The notes beneath the pieces are model-generated. The model saw only the letters and a program-made list of their open reading frames with translations. It made no database searches and was not told the origin of the DNA. From Escherichia coli (GTDB lineage: Bacteria > Pseudomonadota > Gammaproteobacteria > Enterobacterales > Enterobacteriaceae), in assembly GCF_050920415.1 (NCBI RefSeq), contig NZ_CP169309.1: a stretch of DNA of 64,000 bases, one strand, 5' to 3'. The position numbers and the translations under genes are program-made. Shown piece after piece: positions 11,364 to 57,310 of the stretch; position 1 is the stretch's first letter, and every line of letters begins with the position of its first letter.

Positions 11364-12560
11364 ATGCTAAAAGTGTTATTGCTCTTTGTGTTGCTGATTG
11401 CGGGGATCGTGGTCGGCCCGATGATTGCCGGTCATCAGGGTTACGTGCTGATCCAGACCGATACCTACAATATCGAAACCAGCGTCACGGGCCTGGCGAT
11501 CATTTTGATTCTGGCGATGGTAGTGCTGTTTGCCATTGAGTGGCTACTGCGGCGGATCTTCCGCACAGGCGCACACACCCGTGGGTGGTTTATCGGACGT
11601 AAGCGTCGCCGTGCCCGTAAGCAGACCGAACAGGCGCTGCTGAAACTAGCGGAAGGCGATTATCAGCAAGTTGAAAAGCTGATGGCGAAAAATGCCGATC
11701 ACGCTGAACAACCGGTGGTGAACTATCTGCTGGCTGCCGAAGCCGCGCAACAACGCGGTGATGAAGCACGCGCCAACCAACATCTGGAACGCGCAGCGGA
11801 GCTGGCCGGCAACGACACAATTCCGGTAGAAATCACCCGTGTACGTCTGCAACTGGCCCGTAATGAAAACCATGCAGCACGTCACGGCGTTGATAAGCTG
11901 CTGGAAGTTACGCCACGCCATCCGGAAGTATTACGTCTGGCGGAACAGGCGTATATCCGCACTGGTGCATGGAGTTCGCTGCTGGATATCATCCCATCAA
12001 TGGCAAAAGCCCACGTTGGCGATGAAGAGCATCGTGCAATGCTGGAACAACAGGCATGGATTGGCCTGATGGATCAGGCGCGTGCCGATAACGGTAGCGA
12101 AGGTTTGCGTAACTGGTGGAAAAACCAAAGCCGGAAAACGCGTCATCAGGTGGCGTTACAGGTGGCAATGGCGGAACATCTTATTGAATGTGACGATCAT
12201 GATACTGCCCAGCAAATTATCATCGACGGCCTGAAACGCCAGTATGACGATCGCCTGCTGCTGCCGATCCCGCGTCTGAAAACCAATAACCCGGAACAGC
12301 TGGAAAAAGTGCTGCGCCAACAGATCAAAAACGTGGGCGATCGCCCGTTGTTGTGGAGCACACTGGGTCAGTCGCTGATGAAGCACGGAGAATGGCAGGA
12401 AGCATCGCTCGCCTTCCGCGCAGCGCTGAAACAACGTCCGGACGCCTACGATTACGCATGGCTTGCCGACGCGCTGGACAGACTGCACAAGCCGGAAGAA
12501 GCCGCAGCGATGCGTCGCGATGGCTTGATGTTAACGTTGCAGAACAACCCGCCACAGTAG
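11364..12560 (+). CDS. hemY: HemY (TPR-like protein of the hemCDXY operon)
   Basis: 398-aa ORF with two N-terminal TM helices (MLKVLLLFVLLIAGIVVGPMIAG...), immediately after hemX. Confidence 0.92.
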   Translation: MLKVLLLFVLLIAGIVVGPMIAGHQGYVLIQTDTYNIETSVTGLAIILILAMVVLFAIEWLLRRIFRTGAHTRGWFIGRKRRRARKQTEQALLKLAEGDYQQVEKLMAKNADHAEQPVVNYLLAAEAAQQRGDEARANQHLERAAELAGNDTIPVEITRVRLQLARNENHAARHGVDKLLEVTPRHPEVLRLAEQAYIRTGAWSSLLDIIPSMAKAHVGDEEHRAMLEQQAWIGLMDQARADNGSEGLRNWWKNQSRKTRHQVALQVAMAEHLIECDDHDTAQQIIIDGLKRQYDDRLLLPIPRLKTNNPEQLEKVLRQQIKNVGDRPLLWSTLGQSLMKHGEWQEASLAFRAALKQRPDAYDYAWLADALDRLHKPEEAAAMRRDGLMLTLQNNPPQ

Positions 12561-12607
12561 CTCTTTCTCACCCGGAGGCAAGCACCTCCGGGACCTTTCT
12601 GATATAT

Positions 12608-12814
12608 AAAAAAACGCCTGCTCTTATTACGGAGCAGGCGTTAAAACAGGTCTGTATGACAACAAGTGGGTGCTTCACTCAACGTTGTGTCCATGGTGTC
12701 TGATGAGGCATAAGCGACATCTGTCAGTGGACGATAAGCACCGTAAACGGCTCTGCGTCATTCCGGAGTTTATGAGGCACTAAGGCGAACATAAGAGATG
12801 GAATGAGCATCTAC
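12608..12814 (-). ncRNA. glmZ: Small regulatory RNA GlmZ (activator of glmS translation)
   Basis: Reverse strand reads GUAGAUGCUCAUUCCAUCUCUUAUGUUCGCCUUAGUGCCUCAUAAACUCCGG... and ends in terminator AACGCCUGCUCCGUAAUAAGAGCAGGCGUU + U7; matches GlmZ as I recall it; located between hemY and aslA as in K-12. Confidence 0.85.
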
Positions 12815-13238
12815 TCGTTTATTATGCCACAGAGAACCGTGAAATAACATCCCTTAACACTTGTTATGAGATAATTCTGTAATCCTCTTTGCTTCCTGAG
12901 TAATAACTTCCTGAGTGAATATTTCTCCTGCGCACGATTCTACACATATATATAATGAATAATAAAAGTCATTCAATTAATAACATATATATTAATTGCC
13001 GTTAAAACTAAAAACAGCATCAATAATCAACGCGATATAACATCACCGCCTTACATATCACCTGCGCCAGAGGTAGGATTGAAAACGCTCTCCTGATTTT
13101 CCAATTCATTATCTGTATAAATAAATAATTTATTTTCATCACTATTATTTATGCAATCATCCTGTCAGGGAGAGGGATCTCAATTATCAATGCTTAATTA
13201 CGTCAACATTTTGACGACATGAAACCGGAGCATTTTGC

Positions 13239-14894
13239 ATGGAATTTTCGTTTTCACCCAAACTTCTTGTTGTGGCTGTCGCCGCCGCTCTTCCACTCAT
13301 GGCCAGCGCAGCAGATACCCCGTCAACCGCCACCGCACGCAAAGGCTTTGCCGGATACGATCACCCAAACCAGTATCTGGTTAAACCGGCGACCACTATT
13401 GCCGACAACATGATGCCGGTGATGCAGCATCCTGCACAAGACAAAGAAACCCAGCAGAAGCTGGCAGAACTTGAGAAAAAAACCGGTAAGAAACCGAACG
13501 TGGTTGTTTTCTTGCTGGATGATGTGGGCTGGATGGATGTTGGCTTTAACGGCGGTGGCGTGGCGGTGGGTAACCCTACACCAGATATCGACGCCGTTGC
13601 CAGCCAGGGGCTGATTTTAACTTCGGCGTATTCTCAACCGAGTTCTTCCCCAACCCGCGCCACGATTCTCACCGGACAATACTCCATCCACCACGGCATT
13701 CTGATGCCGCCAATGTACGGGCAGCCGGGCGGTCTGCAAGGGTTAACCACGCTGCCACAGTTGCTGCACGATCAGGGCTACGTCACCCAGGCTATCGGGA
13801 AATGGCATATGGGGGAAAACAAAGAGTCGCAGCCGCAGAACGTTGGCTTTGATGATTTCCGCGGCTTTAACTCGGTATCTGATATGTATACCGAATGGCG
13901 TGATGTTCATGTCAACCCGGAAGTCGCCCTGAGCCCGGATCGTTCTGAATACATCCAAAAACTGCCGTTCAGCAAAGATGACGTTCATGCCGTGCGCGGC
14001 GGTGAACAGGAAGCCATTGCCGACATTACGCCGAAATATATGGAAGATCTGGATCAACGCTGGATGGAATATGGCGTTAAGTTCCTCGACAAGATGGCAA
14101 AGAGCGATAAGCCATTCTTCCTCTACTATGGCACTCGCGGCTGTCACTTCGATAACTACCCGAACGCCAAATATGCGGGTAGCTCTCCGGCGCGCACCTC
14201 TTACGGCGACTGCATGGTGGAGATGAACGATATCTTCGCCAATCTGTATAAAGCACTGGAGAAAAACGGTCAGCTTGATAACACGCTGATTGTGTTCACC
14301 TCTGATAACGGTCCGGAAGCTGAAGTTCCGCCGCACGGTCGCACGCCGTTCCGCGGTGCGAAAGGTTCTACATGGGAAGGCGGCGTTCGTGTGCCAACCT
14401 TCGTTTACTGGAAAGGGATGATCCAACCGCGTAAATCTGACGGTATTGTCGATCTGGCGGATCTCTTCCCTACGGCGCTGGATCTGGCAGGACATCCTGG
14501 AGCGAAAGTGGCGAATTTAGTGCCGAAAACCACCTTTATTGATGGTGTGGACCAGACATCTTTCTTCCTGGGAACAAATGGTCAGTCTAACCGTAAGGCC
14601 GAGCACTACTTCCTCAACGGCAAACTTTCTGCTGTGCGTATGGATGAGTTTAAATATCACGTACTCATCCAACAGCCATACGCTTATACCCAGAGCGGGT
14701 ATCAGGGTGGATTCACCGGCACAGTAATGCAAACGGCGGGATCGTCGGTGTTTAACCTGTACACCGATCCGCAGGAAAGCGACTCTATCGGCGTGCGCCA
14801 TATCCCAATGGGTGTACCGCTACAGACCGAAATGCACGCGTATATGGAGATCCTGAAAAAATATCCGCCGCGCGCGCAGATTAAATCTGATTAA
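13239..14894 (+). CDS. aslA: Arylsulfatase AslA (sulfatase family, periplasmic)
   Basis: 551-aa ORF with signal peptide and sulfatase signature C-H-F / [12 protein letters not shown] context. Confidence 0.92.
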
Positions 14895-16450: not shown

Positions 16451-16527
16451 TGGTCGGCGAGAGAGGATTCGAACCTCCGACCCACTGGTCCCAAACCAGT
16501 TGCGCTACCAAGCTGCGCTACTCGCCG
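16451..16527 (-). tRNA. proM: tRNA-Pro (CGG)
   Basis: Reverse complement gives CGGCGAGUAGCGCAGCUUGGUAGCGCAACUGGUUUGGGACCAGUGGGUCGGAGGUUCGAAUCCUCUCUCGCCGACCA. Confidence 0.95.
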
Positions 16528-16569
16528 AAATACTGCTTTTTGAATTTTTAGTTCAATTCTTTAAAGTCG

Positions 16570-16656
16570 TGGTGCGAGGGGGGGGACTTGAACCCCCACG
16601 TCCGTAAGGACACTAACACCTGAAGCTAGCGCGTCTACCAATTCCGCCACCTTCGC
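16570..16656 (-). tRNA. leuT: tRNA-Leu (CAG)
   Basis: Reverse complement gives GCGAAGGUGGCGGAAUUGGUAGACGCGCUAGCUUCAGGUGUUAGUGUCCUUACGGACGUGGGGGUUCAAGUCCCCCCCCUCGCACCA (long variable arm). Confidence 0.95.
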
Positions 16657-16676
16657 ATTGTCACAACTTCTAATAA

Positions 16677-16753
16677 TGGGGTGGCTAATGGGATTCGAAC
16701 CCACGACAACTGGAATCACAATCCAGGGCTCTACCAACTGAGCTATAGCCACC
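16677..16753 (-). tRNA. hisR: tRNA-His (GUG)
   Basis: Reverse complement gives GUGGCUAUAGCUCAGUUGGUAGAGCCCUGGAUUGUGAUUCCAGUUGUCGUGGGUUCGAAUCCCAUUAGCCACCCCA; ends approximate to +/-1 nt. Confidence 0.93.
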
Positions 16754-16810
16754 ACTACAAATCTTGTTACGCGGTATTACTACCACCGCAGCTCAAGCGC
16801 CGGGACTAAA

Positions 16811-16887
<77 letters not shown>

Positions 16888-48560: not shown

Positions 48561-48640
48561 AGTTAGTTCCCCGTCCTGAATCTTGAGAAACAGAATTTTG
48601 TGCTGTTATTCATTGTCTGCTCCTCGGTTATGTTTTTAAG

Positions 48641-48676
48641 GTCAAAAAAAACCCCCGGACCTTTCGGTGCGGGGGT
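48641..48676 (-). terminator. ilvLGMEDA attenuator (rho-independent terminator of the leader)
   Basis: Reverse strand: CCCCCGCACCGAAAGGUCCGGGGG stem-loop followed by U8, between ilvL and ilvG. Confidence 0.85.
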
Positions 48677-48699
48677 CTTAGTTCGTTAAGGCTTGATCT

Positions 48700-48798
48700 C
48701 TAAGCCTTTCCTCGTCCAAGTGCAGCCCCGCACGGTGGGATAATAATCACCACCACGCTAATCACGACCAGGCTAATCACTCGTAGAAGGGCTGTCAT
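48700..48798 (-). CDS. ilvL: ilv operon leader peptide IlvL (Ile/Leu/Val-rich attenuation peptide)
   Basis: Reverse-strand ORF reads MTALLRVISLVVISVVVIIIPPCGAALGRGKA-TAG (32 aa), 15 of 32 residues are branched-chain. Confidence 0.9.
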   Translation of the reverse strand: MTALLRVISLVVISVVVIIIPPCGAALGRGKA

Positions 48799-49149
48799 TT
48801 TGTCTTTTCTTGCATCTTGTTCGAAGGAATGCCTAAAGAGTTACCATAGATTTTGCGAATAGCACAAGATATTTTTTGGCCGATTTTTATGATGCCTTTA
48901 ATAATTTCAATAGAAATTGTTGTTTTTTAAAAAGAAAACAGTGAGTGAAAAAAATTCAATTTCAGTATGAATGTTGTTCCCTTCTTCGTAGTTAATCCTT
49001 TGTCCACTGCATTTTGCGAGCATCGTTCCACCGCCAGAACAACTCAACTTCACTTGCACAAATAAACAGGAATCAGCCACTAAAATTCACGAATTAGCGG
49101 GCTACAGCAGCGATATCTTATGTACATAATGGCGACTCAAGGAGGGCTT

Positions 49150-52086: not shown

Positions 52087-52162
52087 TGGCAGGGGCGGAG
52101 AGACTCGAACTCCCAACACCCGGTTTTGGAGACCGGTGCTCTACCAATTGAACTACGCCCCT
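52087..52162 (-). tRNA. trpT: tRNA-Trp (CCA)
   Basis: Reverse complement gives AGGGGCGUAGUUCAAUUGGUAGAGCACCGGUCUCCAAAACCGGGUGUUGGGAGUUCGAGUCUCUCCGCCCCUGCCA. Confidence 0.95.
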
Positions 52163-52170
52163 AATTAGGG

Positions 52171-52247
52171 TGGCGGAACGGACGGGACTCGAACCCGCGA
52201 CCCCCTGCGTGACAGGCAGGTATTCTAACCGACTGAACTACCGCTCC
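52171..52247 (-). tRNA. aspT: tRNA-Asp (GUC)
   Basis: Reverse complement gives GGAGCGGUAGUUCAGUCGGUUAGAAUACCUGCCUGUCACGCAGGGGGUCGCGGGUUCGAGUCCCGUCCGUUCCGCCA. Confidence 0.95.
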
Positions 52248-52299
52248 ACCGAATTCTTTTACAACCACCGGTTTTATGACCGGCTTACTGCTTAATTTG

Positions 52300-52419
52300 A
52301 TGCCTGGCAGTTCCCTACTCTCGCATGGGGAGACCCCACACTACCATCGGCGCTACGGCGTTTCACTTCTGAGTTCGGCATGGGGTCAGGTGGGACCACC
52401 GCGCTAAGGCCGCCAGGCA
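52300..52419 (-). rRNA. rrfC: 5S ribosomal RNA
   Basis: Reverse complement reads UGCCUGGCGGCC...GGUGGUCCCACCUGACCCCAUGCCGAACUCAGAAGUGAAACGCCGUAGCGCCGAUGGUAGUGUGGGGUCUCCCCAUGCGAGAGUAGGGAACUGCCAGGCAU. Confidence 0.95.
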
Positions 52420-52513
52420 AATTCTGTTTCATCAGACCGCTTCTGCGTTCTGATTTAATCTGTATCAGGCTGAAAATCTTCTCTCAATCCGCCAAAACAC
52501 CTTCGGCGTTGTA

Positions 52514-55414
<2,901 letters not shown>

Positions 55415-55607
55415 TCACAACCCGAAGATGTTTCTTTCGATTCATCATCGTGTTGCGAAAATTTGAGAGACTCACGAACAACTTGCGTTGTTCAGTGTTT
55501 CAATTTTCAGCTTGATCCAGATTTTTAAAGAGCAAATATCTCAAACATCACCCGAAGATGAGTTTTGAGATATTAAGGCAGGTGACTTTCACTCACAAAC
55601 CAGCAAG

Positions 55608-55683
55608 TGGCGTCCCCTAGGGGATTCGAACCCCTGTTACCGCCGTGAAAGGGCGGTGTCCTGGGCCTCTAGACGAAGGGGAC
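55608..55683 (-). tRNA. gltU: tRNA-Glu (UUC), 16S-23S spacer tRNA
   Basis: Reverse complement gives GUCCCCUUCGUCUAGAGGCCCAGGACACCGCCCUUUCACGGCGGUAACAGGGGUUCGAAUCCCCUAGGGGACGCCA. Confidence 0.95.
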
Positions 55684-55768
55684 GTATCAGTCTGCTTCGC
55701 AAGACGCCTTGCTTTTCACTTTCTATCAGACAATCTGTGTGAGCACTGCAAAGCACAGTTCTTTAAGG

Positions 55769-57310
<1,542 letters not shown>

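What the first reader, a model, noticed from the sequence alone, without database searches (positions are those of the whole stretch)
12608..12900. GlmZ sRNA gene with intact terminator and upstream promoter region in the hemY-aslA spacer
The reverse strand encodes the ~207-nt GlmZ RNA (5' GUAGAUGCUCAUUCC..., 3' terminator hairpin + U7), with a candidate -10 (CATAAT/TAATAA) just upstream at ~12820-12830 and an A/T-rich upstream region (12830-13230). GlmZ is known, so this is not novel, but it is an RNA gene that an ORF-only view would miss and that explains the otherwise empty 680-bp spacer.
Basis: partly seen in the sequence, partly recalled or inferred. Interest (0 to 1): 0.2.

Follow-up and report, generated by a model that had tools for sequence, protein, structure and literature searches.

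The report
Known GlmZ small RNA gene, intact
This is the ordinary, fully intact Escherichia coli glmZ gene, a well-studied small regulatory RNA that switches on the cell-wall precursor enzyme GlmS; it is correctly identified but not new.

Summary
The finding is confirmed and is already known. Rfam's GlmZ_SraJ model matches window 12608-12814 (minus strand) end to end at 218.4 bits, against a threshold of 60. All 207 nt are identical to glmZ of E. coli K-12 and start at the same base. The gene lies in the 678-bp hemY-aslA spacer, convergent with hemY and divergent from aslA.

It belongs to the published Escherichia sigma-70 promoter ATGTTA-N15-tggCATAAT, which is present here exactly. The terminator is an 11-bp stem followed by U7.

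- **Conservation:** the gene is at least 99% identical in 5424 of 5426 complete E. coli genomes, while the flanking spacer varies. Against K-12 there are 0 differences in 207 gene positions and 32 in 471 flanking positions.
- **Structure:** 92 enterobacterial homologues support the three stem-loops with compensatory changes.
- **Target:** the linker pairs by 15 bp with glmS -40 to -22.

Corrections are minor. The A/T-rich DNA upstream of -40 is dispensable for glmZ, so the sRNA and its promoter explain only about 250 bp of the spacer. There is no sigma-54 promoter and no GlrR site, as expected for Escherichia.

The parts
12608..12814 (-). glmZ gene: the 207-nt primary GlmZ sRNA, with +1 at 12814 and the 3' end at 12608
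   Evidence: Rfam RF00083 at 218.4 bits, model 1-214 of 214. 207 of 207 bases are identical to K-12 MG1655, with the same start as b4456. At least 99% identical in 5424 of 5426 complete E. coli genomes. The 207-nt primary transcript length is from the literature (PMC4152352).
12821..12829 (-). Extended -10 element TGgCATAAT; the hexamer CATAAT is at 12826-12821, i.e. -12 to -7
   Evidence: Read directly from the sequence. It matches the published Escherichia promoter 'ATGTTA-N15-tggCATAAT', and mutating the -10 abolished expression in K-12 (PMC3045617). Identical in K-12, E. albertii and Escherichia L026.
12845..12850 (-). -35 element ATGTTA, 3 of 6 matches to TTGACA, 18 bp from the -10 hexamer
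   Evidence: Sequence. PMC3045617 names this hexamer; deleting it or mutating its three consensus bases strongly reduced expression. The simple promoter scan missed it because the -35 is weak.
12750..12814 (-). Stem-loop 1 (GlmZ nt 1-65)
   Evidence: Rfam consensus structure mapped onto the sequence. RNAalifold on 93 sequences recovers the lower stem, with compensatory U-A to C-G changes in 14 sequences and C-G to U-A in 4. The apical part is poorly supported in the Rfam register.
12669..12742 (-). Stem-loop 2 (GlmZ nt 73-146), the central stem-loop that RapZ binds according to the literature
   Evidence: The outer helix is 100% paired across 93 sequences, with U-A to C-G in 37 sequences at one pair. 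The inner helix is 92.7% paired, with 7 double changes. RapZ binding to the central stem-loop is from PMC4152352; it was not tested here.
12646..12665 (-). Single-stranded linker carrying the glmS-pairing bases (GlmZ nt 150-157 and 163-169). The RapZ-directed RNase E cut falls at about nt 151-155 (12664-12660).
   Evidence: RNAduplex gives 15 bp with K-12 glmS -40 to -22 at -19.2 kcal/mol; 25 of 2000 shuffled linkers do as well. The glmS segment from -47 to +10 is invariant in four E. coli strains, including the window's closest relative. The 15-nt site, and cleavage 6-7 nt after stem-loop 2, are from the literature (PMC4152352; PMC6602413).
12608..12642 (-). Intrinsic terminator (stem-loop 3): an 11-bp stem with an 8-nt loop (12642-12613), followed by a U7 run that ends at 12608
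   Evidence: Terminator scan and inverted repeat I2, 100% complementary. 8 of its 11 pairs show compensatory changes among 93 homologues.
11364..12560 (+). hemY, the flanking gene convergent with glmZ
   Evidence: A 398-aa ORF, 397 of 398 residues identical to K-12 HemY. Same synteny as K-12 and strain MFDS1022581.
13239..14894 (+). aslA, the flanking gene divergent from glmZ
   Evidence: A 551-aa ORF, 544 of 551 residues identical to K-12 AslA. Synteny as.

Best explanation
Window 12608-12814 (minus strand) is the glmZ gene of an Escherichia coli strain. RNA polymerase with sigma-70 starts at G12814 from a weak -35 (ATGTTA) and an extended -10 (TGgCATAAT), and stops at the 11-bp hairpin plus U7, giving a 207-nt RNA with three stem-loops. 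Full-length GlmZ, helped by Hfq, pairs through its linker (nt 150-169) with the glmS 5' UTR (-40 to -22). This opens a hairpin that hides the ribosome-binding site and raises GlmS synthesis when glucosamine-6-phosphate is scarce. When the metabolite is plentiful, the adaptor RapZ binds the central stem-loop and directs RNase E to cut inside the pairing site, at about nt 151-155, which inactivates the RNA. The paralogue GlmY acts as a decoy for RapZ.

Shown here: identity, boundaries, structure conservation, promoter and terminator sequences, target complementarity, synteny, and absence of sigma-54 and GlrR elements.

Inferred from published work on the identical K-12 sequence: transcription, Hfq and RapZ binding, RNase E cleavage, and the regulatory outcome.
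For: Rfam GlmZ_SraJ scores 218.4 bits over the full model and beats the same-clan overlapping match, which was suppressed. All 207 nt are identical to K-12 glmZ with the same +1. The promoter matches the published ATGTTA-N15-tggCATAAT exactly, and that promoter was validated by deletion and mutation (PMC3045617). The terminator is present. Against K-12 there are 0 differences in 207 gene positions and 32 in 471 spacer positions, Fisher p = 1.2e-5; hemY differs at 47 of 1197 nt and aslA at 103 of 1656 nt. The gene is at least 99% identical in 5424 of 5426 genomes, whereas the whole spacer reaches 99% in only 412. In 93 sequences from many enterobacterial genera, 88% of cells pair in the Rfam structure against 35-39% when partners are slid. 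Compensatory changes occur at 11 pairs in that structure and at 12 pairs in the independent RNAalifold fold. The linker forms a 15-bp duplex with glmS -40 to -22, at the published site (PMC4152352), and the target is invariant in the closest relative. Synteny with hemCDXY is as published.
Against: Nothing in the data argues against it. Limits remain. Expression in this strain was not observed. glmS, glmY, rapZ and hfq lie outside the window, so the partners were checked only in K-12 and in the closest complete genome. Two substitutions relative to K-12 lie in the promoter spacer (-26 C to A at 12840, -23 A to G at 12837), and their effect is unknown. The duplex energy alone is only modestly better than shuffles (25 of 2000). 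The apical part of stem-loop 1 in the Rfam register pairs poorly (26.6% for that helix).
Confidence: 0.98

Rival explanations
1. The locus is the paralogous decoy sRNA GlmY (same Rfam clan), not the base-pairing GlmZ.
For: GlmY and GlmZ belong to one Rfam clan (CL00011) and share overall architecture. A lower-scoring overlapping match from the same clan was suppressed.
Against: Clan competition kept GlmZ at 218.4 bits. The linker carries the 15-nt glmS-pairing site, which GlmY lacks (PMC4152352). The sequence is identical to K-12 glmZ b4456. The synteny is with hemY and aslA, whereas glmY lies next to glrK and purL (PMC3045617).
Confidence: 0.005
2. The locus is a silent or decaying copy of glmZ (a pseudogene), with the gene body intact but no longer transcribed in this strain because of promoter changes.
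For: Two substitutions relative to K-12 fall between the -35 and -10 boxes, at -26 and -23. A natural E. coli strain exists in which IS1 and a deletion removed the promoter and nt 1-6, so loss is tolerated.
Against: The -35, TGn, -10 and +1 bases and the 18-bp spacing are all unchanged. The substituted positions are not promoter-contact elements, and they also vary in E. albertii and Escherichia L026, which keep the same boxes. The gene body has no changes although neighbouring DNA diverges 4-7%, which indicates continuing selection.
Confidence: 0.01
3. The conservation reflects a protein-coding ORF on either strand, for example the 116-aa GTG ORF at 12353-12703 (+) that overlaps the hemY 3' end and runs antisense to glmZ.
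For: The mechanical ORF list contains 12353-12703 (+), 116 aa.
Against: That ORF lies mostly inside hemY in another frame. No RefSeq annotation places a CDS on glmZ, and the one 'hypothetical protein' seen overlaps glmZ by only 2 nt and is an inserted gene absent from this window. The variation among 93 homologues consists of paired compensatory changes and loop indels not in multiples of 3, which is an RNA-structure pattern and not a codon pattern.
Confidence: 0.005

Closest known systems
GlmZ (SraJ/RyiA) of Escherichia coli K-12, gene b4456; Rfam RF00083 GlmZ_SraJ
   Same: All 207 nt are identical, with the same +1, the same -35/TGn/-10 boxes, the same terminator and the same hemY/aslA context.
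   Different: Only the flanks differ. There are 27 substitutions upstream of +1, of which two lie between -35 and -10 (-26 and -23) and the other 25 lie upstream of -110, plus 5 substitutions downstream of the terminator. K-12 RefSeq annotates only 172 nt, whereas Rfam and the literature give 207 nt.
GlmZ of Salmonella, Citrobacter and Enterobacter (group II) and of Yersinia, Serratia and Proteus (group I), following Gopel et al. 2011 (PMC3045617)
   Same: A homologous RNA with the same three stem-loops, the same invariant 5' end GTAGATGCTCAT and the same AACGTTGAGTGA motif, and a conserved linker and terminator architecture.
   Different: Those genera have a sigma-54 promoter, TGGCAC-N5-(G/T)TGCA, with the GG at -26/-25 relative to +1, plus GlrR sites TGTC-N10-GACA at about -150 and -214. 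Group II additionally has an overlapping sigma-70 -10 box. In the window the -24 element is absent (CACGGT), the -12 GC has become GG, and no GlrR site with at most 1 mismatch lies in 12815-13238. This is the sigma-70-only Escherichia arrangement.
GlmY (Rfam RF00128, same clan CL00011)
   Same: A paralogous sRNA with similar stem-loops 1 and 2; it binds RapZ (PMC4152352).
   Different: GlmY lacks the glmS-pairing linker, sits at a different locus, and acts as a protein decoy rather than by base-pairing. The window sequence scores as GlmZ and carries the pairing site.

Membership tests
GlmZ_SraJ (Rfam RF00083) | Covariance-model score at or above the curated gathering score, over the full model | tested here: met
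   218.4 bits against a gathering score of 60, model positions 1-214 of 214, E = 3.4e-56. Repeated on 12400-13400 with E = 5.3e-58.
GlmZ_SraJ (Rfam RF00083) | Scores better as GlmZ than as the paralogue GlmY of the same clan | tested here: met
   Clan competition kept GlmZ, and the lower-scoring same-clan overlap was dropped.
GlmZ_SraJ (Rfam RF00083) | Three stem-loop architecture (SL1, central SL2, terminator SL3) maintained by compensatory changes among homologues | tested here: met
   In 93 sequences, 88.2% of cells pair, against 35-39% when partners are slid. 11 pairs show double changes, and 0 of 500 shuffles reach the observed covariation score. An independent RNAalifold fold recovers the same helices, with 12 compensatory pairs. 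The apex of SL1 is not supported in the Rfam register.
GlmZ (functional definition: base-pairing activator of glmS) | Single-stranded linker between SL2 and the terminator that is complementary to the glmS 5' UTR around -41 to -19 | tested here: met
   15 bp between GlmZ nt 150-157 and 163-169 and glmS -40 to -22, at -19.2 kcal/mol. The target is invariant in K-12, MFDS1022581, N96 and IAI39. glmS itself is outside the window.
GlmZ (functional definition: base-pairing activator of glmS) | Hfq-dependent activation of glmS translation; RapZ binding and RNase E cleavage at about nt 151-155 | not testable with these tools
   Inferred from 100% identity to the K-12 RNA in which these were shown (PMC4152352; PMC6602413).
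GlmZ locus synteny | Lies next to the hemCDXY cluster, convergent with hemY | tested here: met
   hemY is at 11364-12560 (+) and glmZ on the minus strand 48 nt downstream. Published synteny is in PMC3045617.
Escherichia-type (group III) glmZ promoter, sigma-70 only | ATGTTA-N15-tggCATAAT placed so that transcription starts at the G of GTAGATG | tested here: met
   Exact match at 12850-12821, with 6 nt between the hexamer and +1. The motif is quoted in PMC3045617.
Escherichia-type (group III) glmZ promoter, sigma-70 only | No sigma-54 -24/-12 element and no GlrR sites (TGTC-N10-GACA) upstream | tested here: met
   No site with at most 1 mismatch lies in 12815-13238. The -27 to -22 positions read CACGGT instead of TGGCAC, and -14/-13 read GG instead of GC.
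Independent transcription unit | Actual transcription and 3' end formation in this strain | not testable with these tools
   Only sequence signals were examined. Function was shown for the K-12 promoter fragment -40 to +32, which differs from the window at -26 and -23.

The most novel reading that the evidence does not exclude
The least ordinary reading not excluded concerns the strain-specific flank. It includes the two substitutions inside the promoter spacer (-26 and -23), the conserved tandem 15-nt repeat at 12892-12921, and the A/T-rich 385 bp shared with aslA. This flank could give glmZ, or divergent aslA, some regulation that the 'constitutive, unregulated' K-12 promoter was not seen to have. 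The RNA itself is certainly the known GlmZ.
Probability: 0.04. Interest if true: 0.2.

Novelty: already known. Interest (0 to 1): 0.06.

Why it matters
It matters mainly for annotation. GlmZ controls synthesis of GlmS, the first enzyme of the amino-sugar pathway for cell-envelope synthesis. Yet most RefSeq E. coli genomes carry no feature here, and K-12 RefSeq lists only 172 of the 207 nt. An ORF-based reading therefore leaves the spacer looking empty. Nothing here changes current understanding of GlmZ.

Tried and rejected
- **Simple promoter scan.** The sigma-70 scan did not report the real promoter because its -35 matches only 3 of 6 bases. The two sites it did report (13183-13156 and 13168-13141, minus strand) lie more than 300 nt upstream of glmZ. 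They were not pursued as glmZ promoters.
- **Whole-molecule RNAduplex.** Folding full-length GlmZ against the glmUS spacer gave a meaningless end-to-end duplex that was worse than shuffles. I replaced it with a linker-restricted duplex.
- **First sigma-54 pattern.** The regular expression TGGCA[CT]-N5-TTGC matched nothing, because the -12 element of glmZ promoters reads GTGC or CTGC. I read the printed promoter sequences directly instead and confirmed them by alignment.
- **TGGCA as a sigma-54 relic.** I considered that TGGCA in TGTGGCATAAT might be a leftover -24 box. The alignment shows it is positionally homologous to the -12/-10 segment TGTGCAATAAT of other genera, not to the -24 box.
- **'Hypothetical protein' under the match.** I suspected that some RefSeq genomes mis-annotate glmZ as a CDS. 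In fact it is a separate inserted 196-aa gene that overlaps glmZ by 2 nt.
- **Permissive Rfam search.** A search of 12400-13400 at the E-value threshold found only chance-level extra hits (ncr1175 and SNORA68, E = 0.15-0.2, far below their gathering scores).
- **Position-by-position comparison with strain MFDS1022581.** This failed over 6.7 kb because of indels in hemX. I used the K-12 protein comparisons instead.

Full report
**Observation.** Read on the minus strand, window 12814-12608 begins GTAGATGCTCATTCC. It ends in the hairpin AACGCCTGCTC-N8-GAGCAGGCGTT followed by T7. The terminator scan reports this hairpin at 12642-12613, with 11 pairs of which 7 are G-C. The repeat finder reports the same arms as 100% complementary. 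A gathering-threshold Rfam scan of the whole 64-kb window places RF00083 GlmZ_SraJ at exactly 12608-12814 (-). It covers model positions 1-214 of 214 at 218.4 bits against a gathering score of 60, E = 3.4e-56. A permissive rescan of 12400-13400 adds only chance-level hits, and it again drops a lower-scoring overlapping match from the same clan. The feature is therefore real, sits at the stated coordinates, and is far beyond chance.

**Identity and context.** The flanking ORFs are 11364-12560 (+), 398 aa, and 13239-14894 (+), 551 aa. They are 397 of 398 and 544 of 551 residues identical to K-12 HemY and AslA. The K-12 record shows the same order, aslB-aslA-glmZ-hemY-hemX-hemD, with glmZ opposite to both neighbours. 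The spacer is 678 bp. Aligned to K-12 it has 32 substitutions and none of them falls in the 207-nt gene. The G annotated as the first base of b4456 aligns with window 12814. The split is 0 of 207 against 32 of 471, Fisher p = 1.2e-5. For comparison, hemY differs from K-12 at 47 of 1197 nt and aslA at 103 of 1656 nt. Across 5426 complete E. coli genomes the 207 nt are at least 99% identical in all 5424 that have it. The whole spacer reaches 99% in only 412. The RNA is thus under much stronger constraint than the DNA around it. K-12 RefSeq lists glmZ as 172 nt.

**Promoter.** Six nucleotides upstream of +1 lies CATAAT (12826-12821), preceded by TGg (12829-12827). ATGTTA lies at 12850-12845, 18 bp from the hexamer. 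Gopel et al. give the Escherichia and Shigella glmZ promoter as 'ATGTTA-N15-tggCATAAT', which is an exact match. They show in K-12 that sequence upstream of -40 is dispensable and that removing the -35 abrogates expression. Mutating the three consensus bases of the -35 strongly reduces expression, and mutating the -10 abolishes it. GlrR does not bind the fragment, and neither glrR nor rpoN deletion affects it. They call it a single, constitutive sigma-70 promoter (PMC3045617). The window differs from K-12 inside this fragment only at -26 (C to A, 12840) and -23 (A to G, 12837), between the two boxes. The consensus promoter scan missed this promoter because of its weak -35.

**Comparison with other genera.** A pattern scan of one genome per species returned 120 stretches. 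Of these, 92 carry the GlmZ 5' motif at the right distance; the rest are chance matches in unrelated phyla. Most genera show TGGCAC-N5-(G/T)TGCAATAAT before +1, a sigma-54 -24/-12 promoter. In the Salmonella/Citrobacter/Enterobacter group it overlaps a sigma-70 -10 box. These genera also carry TGTC-N10-GACA sites at about -150 and -214. In the window and in other Escherichia, the -27 to -22 positions read CACGGT or CCCGA instead of TGGCAC, and the -12 GC has become GG. The upstream DNA is not alignable to the other genera. No TGTC-N10-GACA with at most 1 mismatch lies anywhere in 12815-13238. The TGGCA inside TGTGGCATAAT is positionally homologous to TGTGCAATAAT of other genera, so it is not a displaced -24 box. 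The window therefore has the published group III arrangement.

**Structure.** The single-sequence fold gives -60.8 kcal/mol, z = -3.3. I mapped the Rfam consensus structure onto a 93-sequence alignment. In it, 88.2% of cells form standard pairs, against 35-39% when partners are slid by 1-3 columns. Eleven pairs show changes on both sides, and 0 of 500 shuffles reach the observed covariation score.

- The outer helix of stem-loop 2 is 100% paired, with a U-A to C-G switch in 37 sequences.
- The terminator has double changes at 8 of its 11 pairs.
- RNAalifold, run independently, recovers the same helices and 12 compensatory pairs, including two in the lower stem of stem-loop 1.
- The apex of stem-loop 1 is not supported in the Rfam register. 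An invariant UAUG/CAUA helix fits better.

**Mechanism.** GlmZ nt 150-157 and 163-169 (window 12665-12658 and 12652-12646) form 15 base pairs with K-12 glmS -40 to -22, at -19.2 kcal/mol; 25 of 2000 shuffled linkers do as well. [quoted passage not shown] The glmS region from -47 to +10 is invariant in K-12, in MFDS1022581 (whose spacer is 100% identical to the window), and in two divergent strains. RNase E, directed by RapZ bound to the central stem-loop, cuts 6-7 nt after stem-loop 2, inside the pairing site. Hfq protects the site and assists pairing, and GlmY titrates RapZ (PMC4152352; PMC6602413). These biochemical steps are inferred from sequence identity and were not tested here. glmS is not in the window.

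**Verdict.** Three points need correcting.

- The A/T-rich DNA from about 12855 to 13238 is not needed for glmZ. It is better regarded as the aslA upstream region, so the sRNA and its promoter account for about 250 of the 678 bp.
- TAATAA is not the -10 box.
- The promoter is of the extended -10 type.

The feature is already known and ordinary. Its only practical value is as an annotation point, since most RefSeq E. coli genomes carry no feature here.

Noticed in passing
window 12571-12592 (+): A perfect 8-bp G+C-rich hairpin, CCCGGAGG-N6-CCTCCGGG, lies 11 nt after the hemY stop codon. It is followed by ACCTTTCT rather than a proper T run, so the terminator scan did not call it. It probably ends or stabilises the hemCDXY transcript, facing the glmZ terminator.
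   Followed up: partly
window 12892-12921 (+), i.e. -78 to -107 of glmZ: A tandem 15-nt direct repeat, CTTCCTGAGTAATAA / CTTCCTGAGTGAATA, in the divergent aslA-glmZ region. It is conserved in K-12 and only partly in E. albertii. It lies upstream of the -40 limit of the glmZ promoter, and its role is unknown.
   Followed up: partly
L001 3433-3604 (K-12 NC_000913.3 3986432-3986603); L002: K-12 RefSeq annotates glmZ as 172 nt, stopping before the terminator. PGAP-annotated genomes, including the 100%-identical strain MFDS1022581, have no feature at all at this locus.
   Followed up: yes
L124 2598-3747 (E. coli O9:H10 Res13-Lact-PEB21-38-A): In this strain an IS1A element with an adjacent deletion has removed most of aslA, the whole glmZ promoter and glmZ nt 1-6. 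The rest of the gene is intact. It is a natural promoterless glmZ allele.
   Followed up: partly
L125 806-1396 (E. coli BroCaecum-55); hits H22-H24: Some E. coli strains carry an extra 196-aa 'hypothetical protein' gene between the glmZ terminator and hemY, overlapping the glmZ 3' end by 2 nt. It is absent from the window.
   Followed up: partly
L007, L038, L039, L047, L057, L120 (promoter regions printed): Several non-Escherichia genera also lack an intact TGGCAC at -27 to -22 of glmZ: Superficieibacter, Pseudocitrobacter, Citrobacter youngae, Phytobacter and Kluyvera genomosp. 3. Phytobacter still keeps TGTC-N10-GACA sites at -213 and -150. Loss of the sigma-54 promoter may have happened more than once.
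   Followed up: no
window 48580-48869 (-), 33472-33571 (-), 55422-55530 (-), 52090-57310 (-), 16454-16887 (-): Other Rfam hits above their gathering scores: Rev39_5p_UTR (157 bits), TrxA 5' UTR thermometer, StyR-44, a complete rRNA operon (16S, one spacer tRNA, 23S, 5S, then two more tRNAs downstream at 52090-52247), and a cluster of four tRNAs. All are on the minus strand.
   Followed up: no
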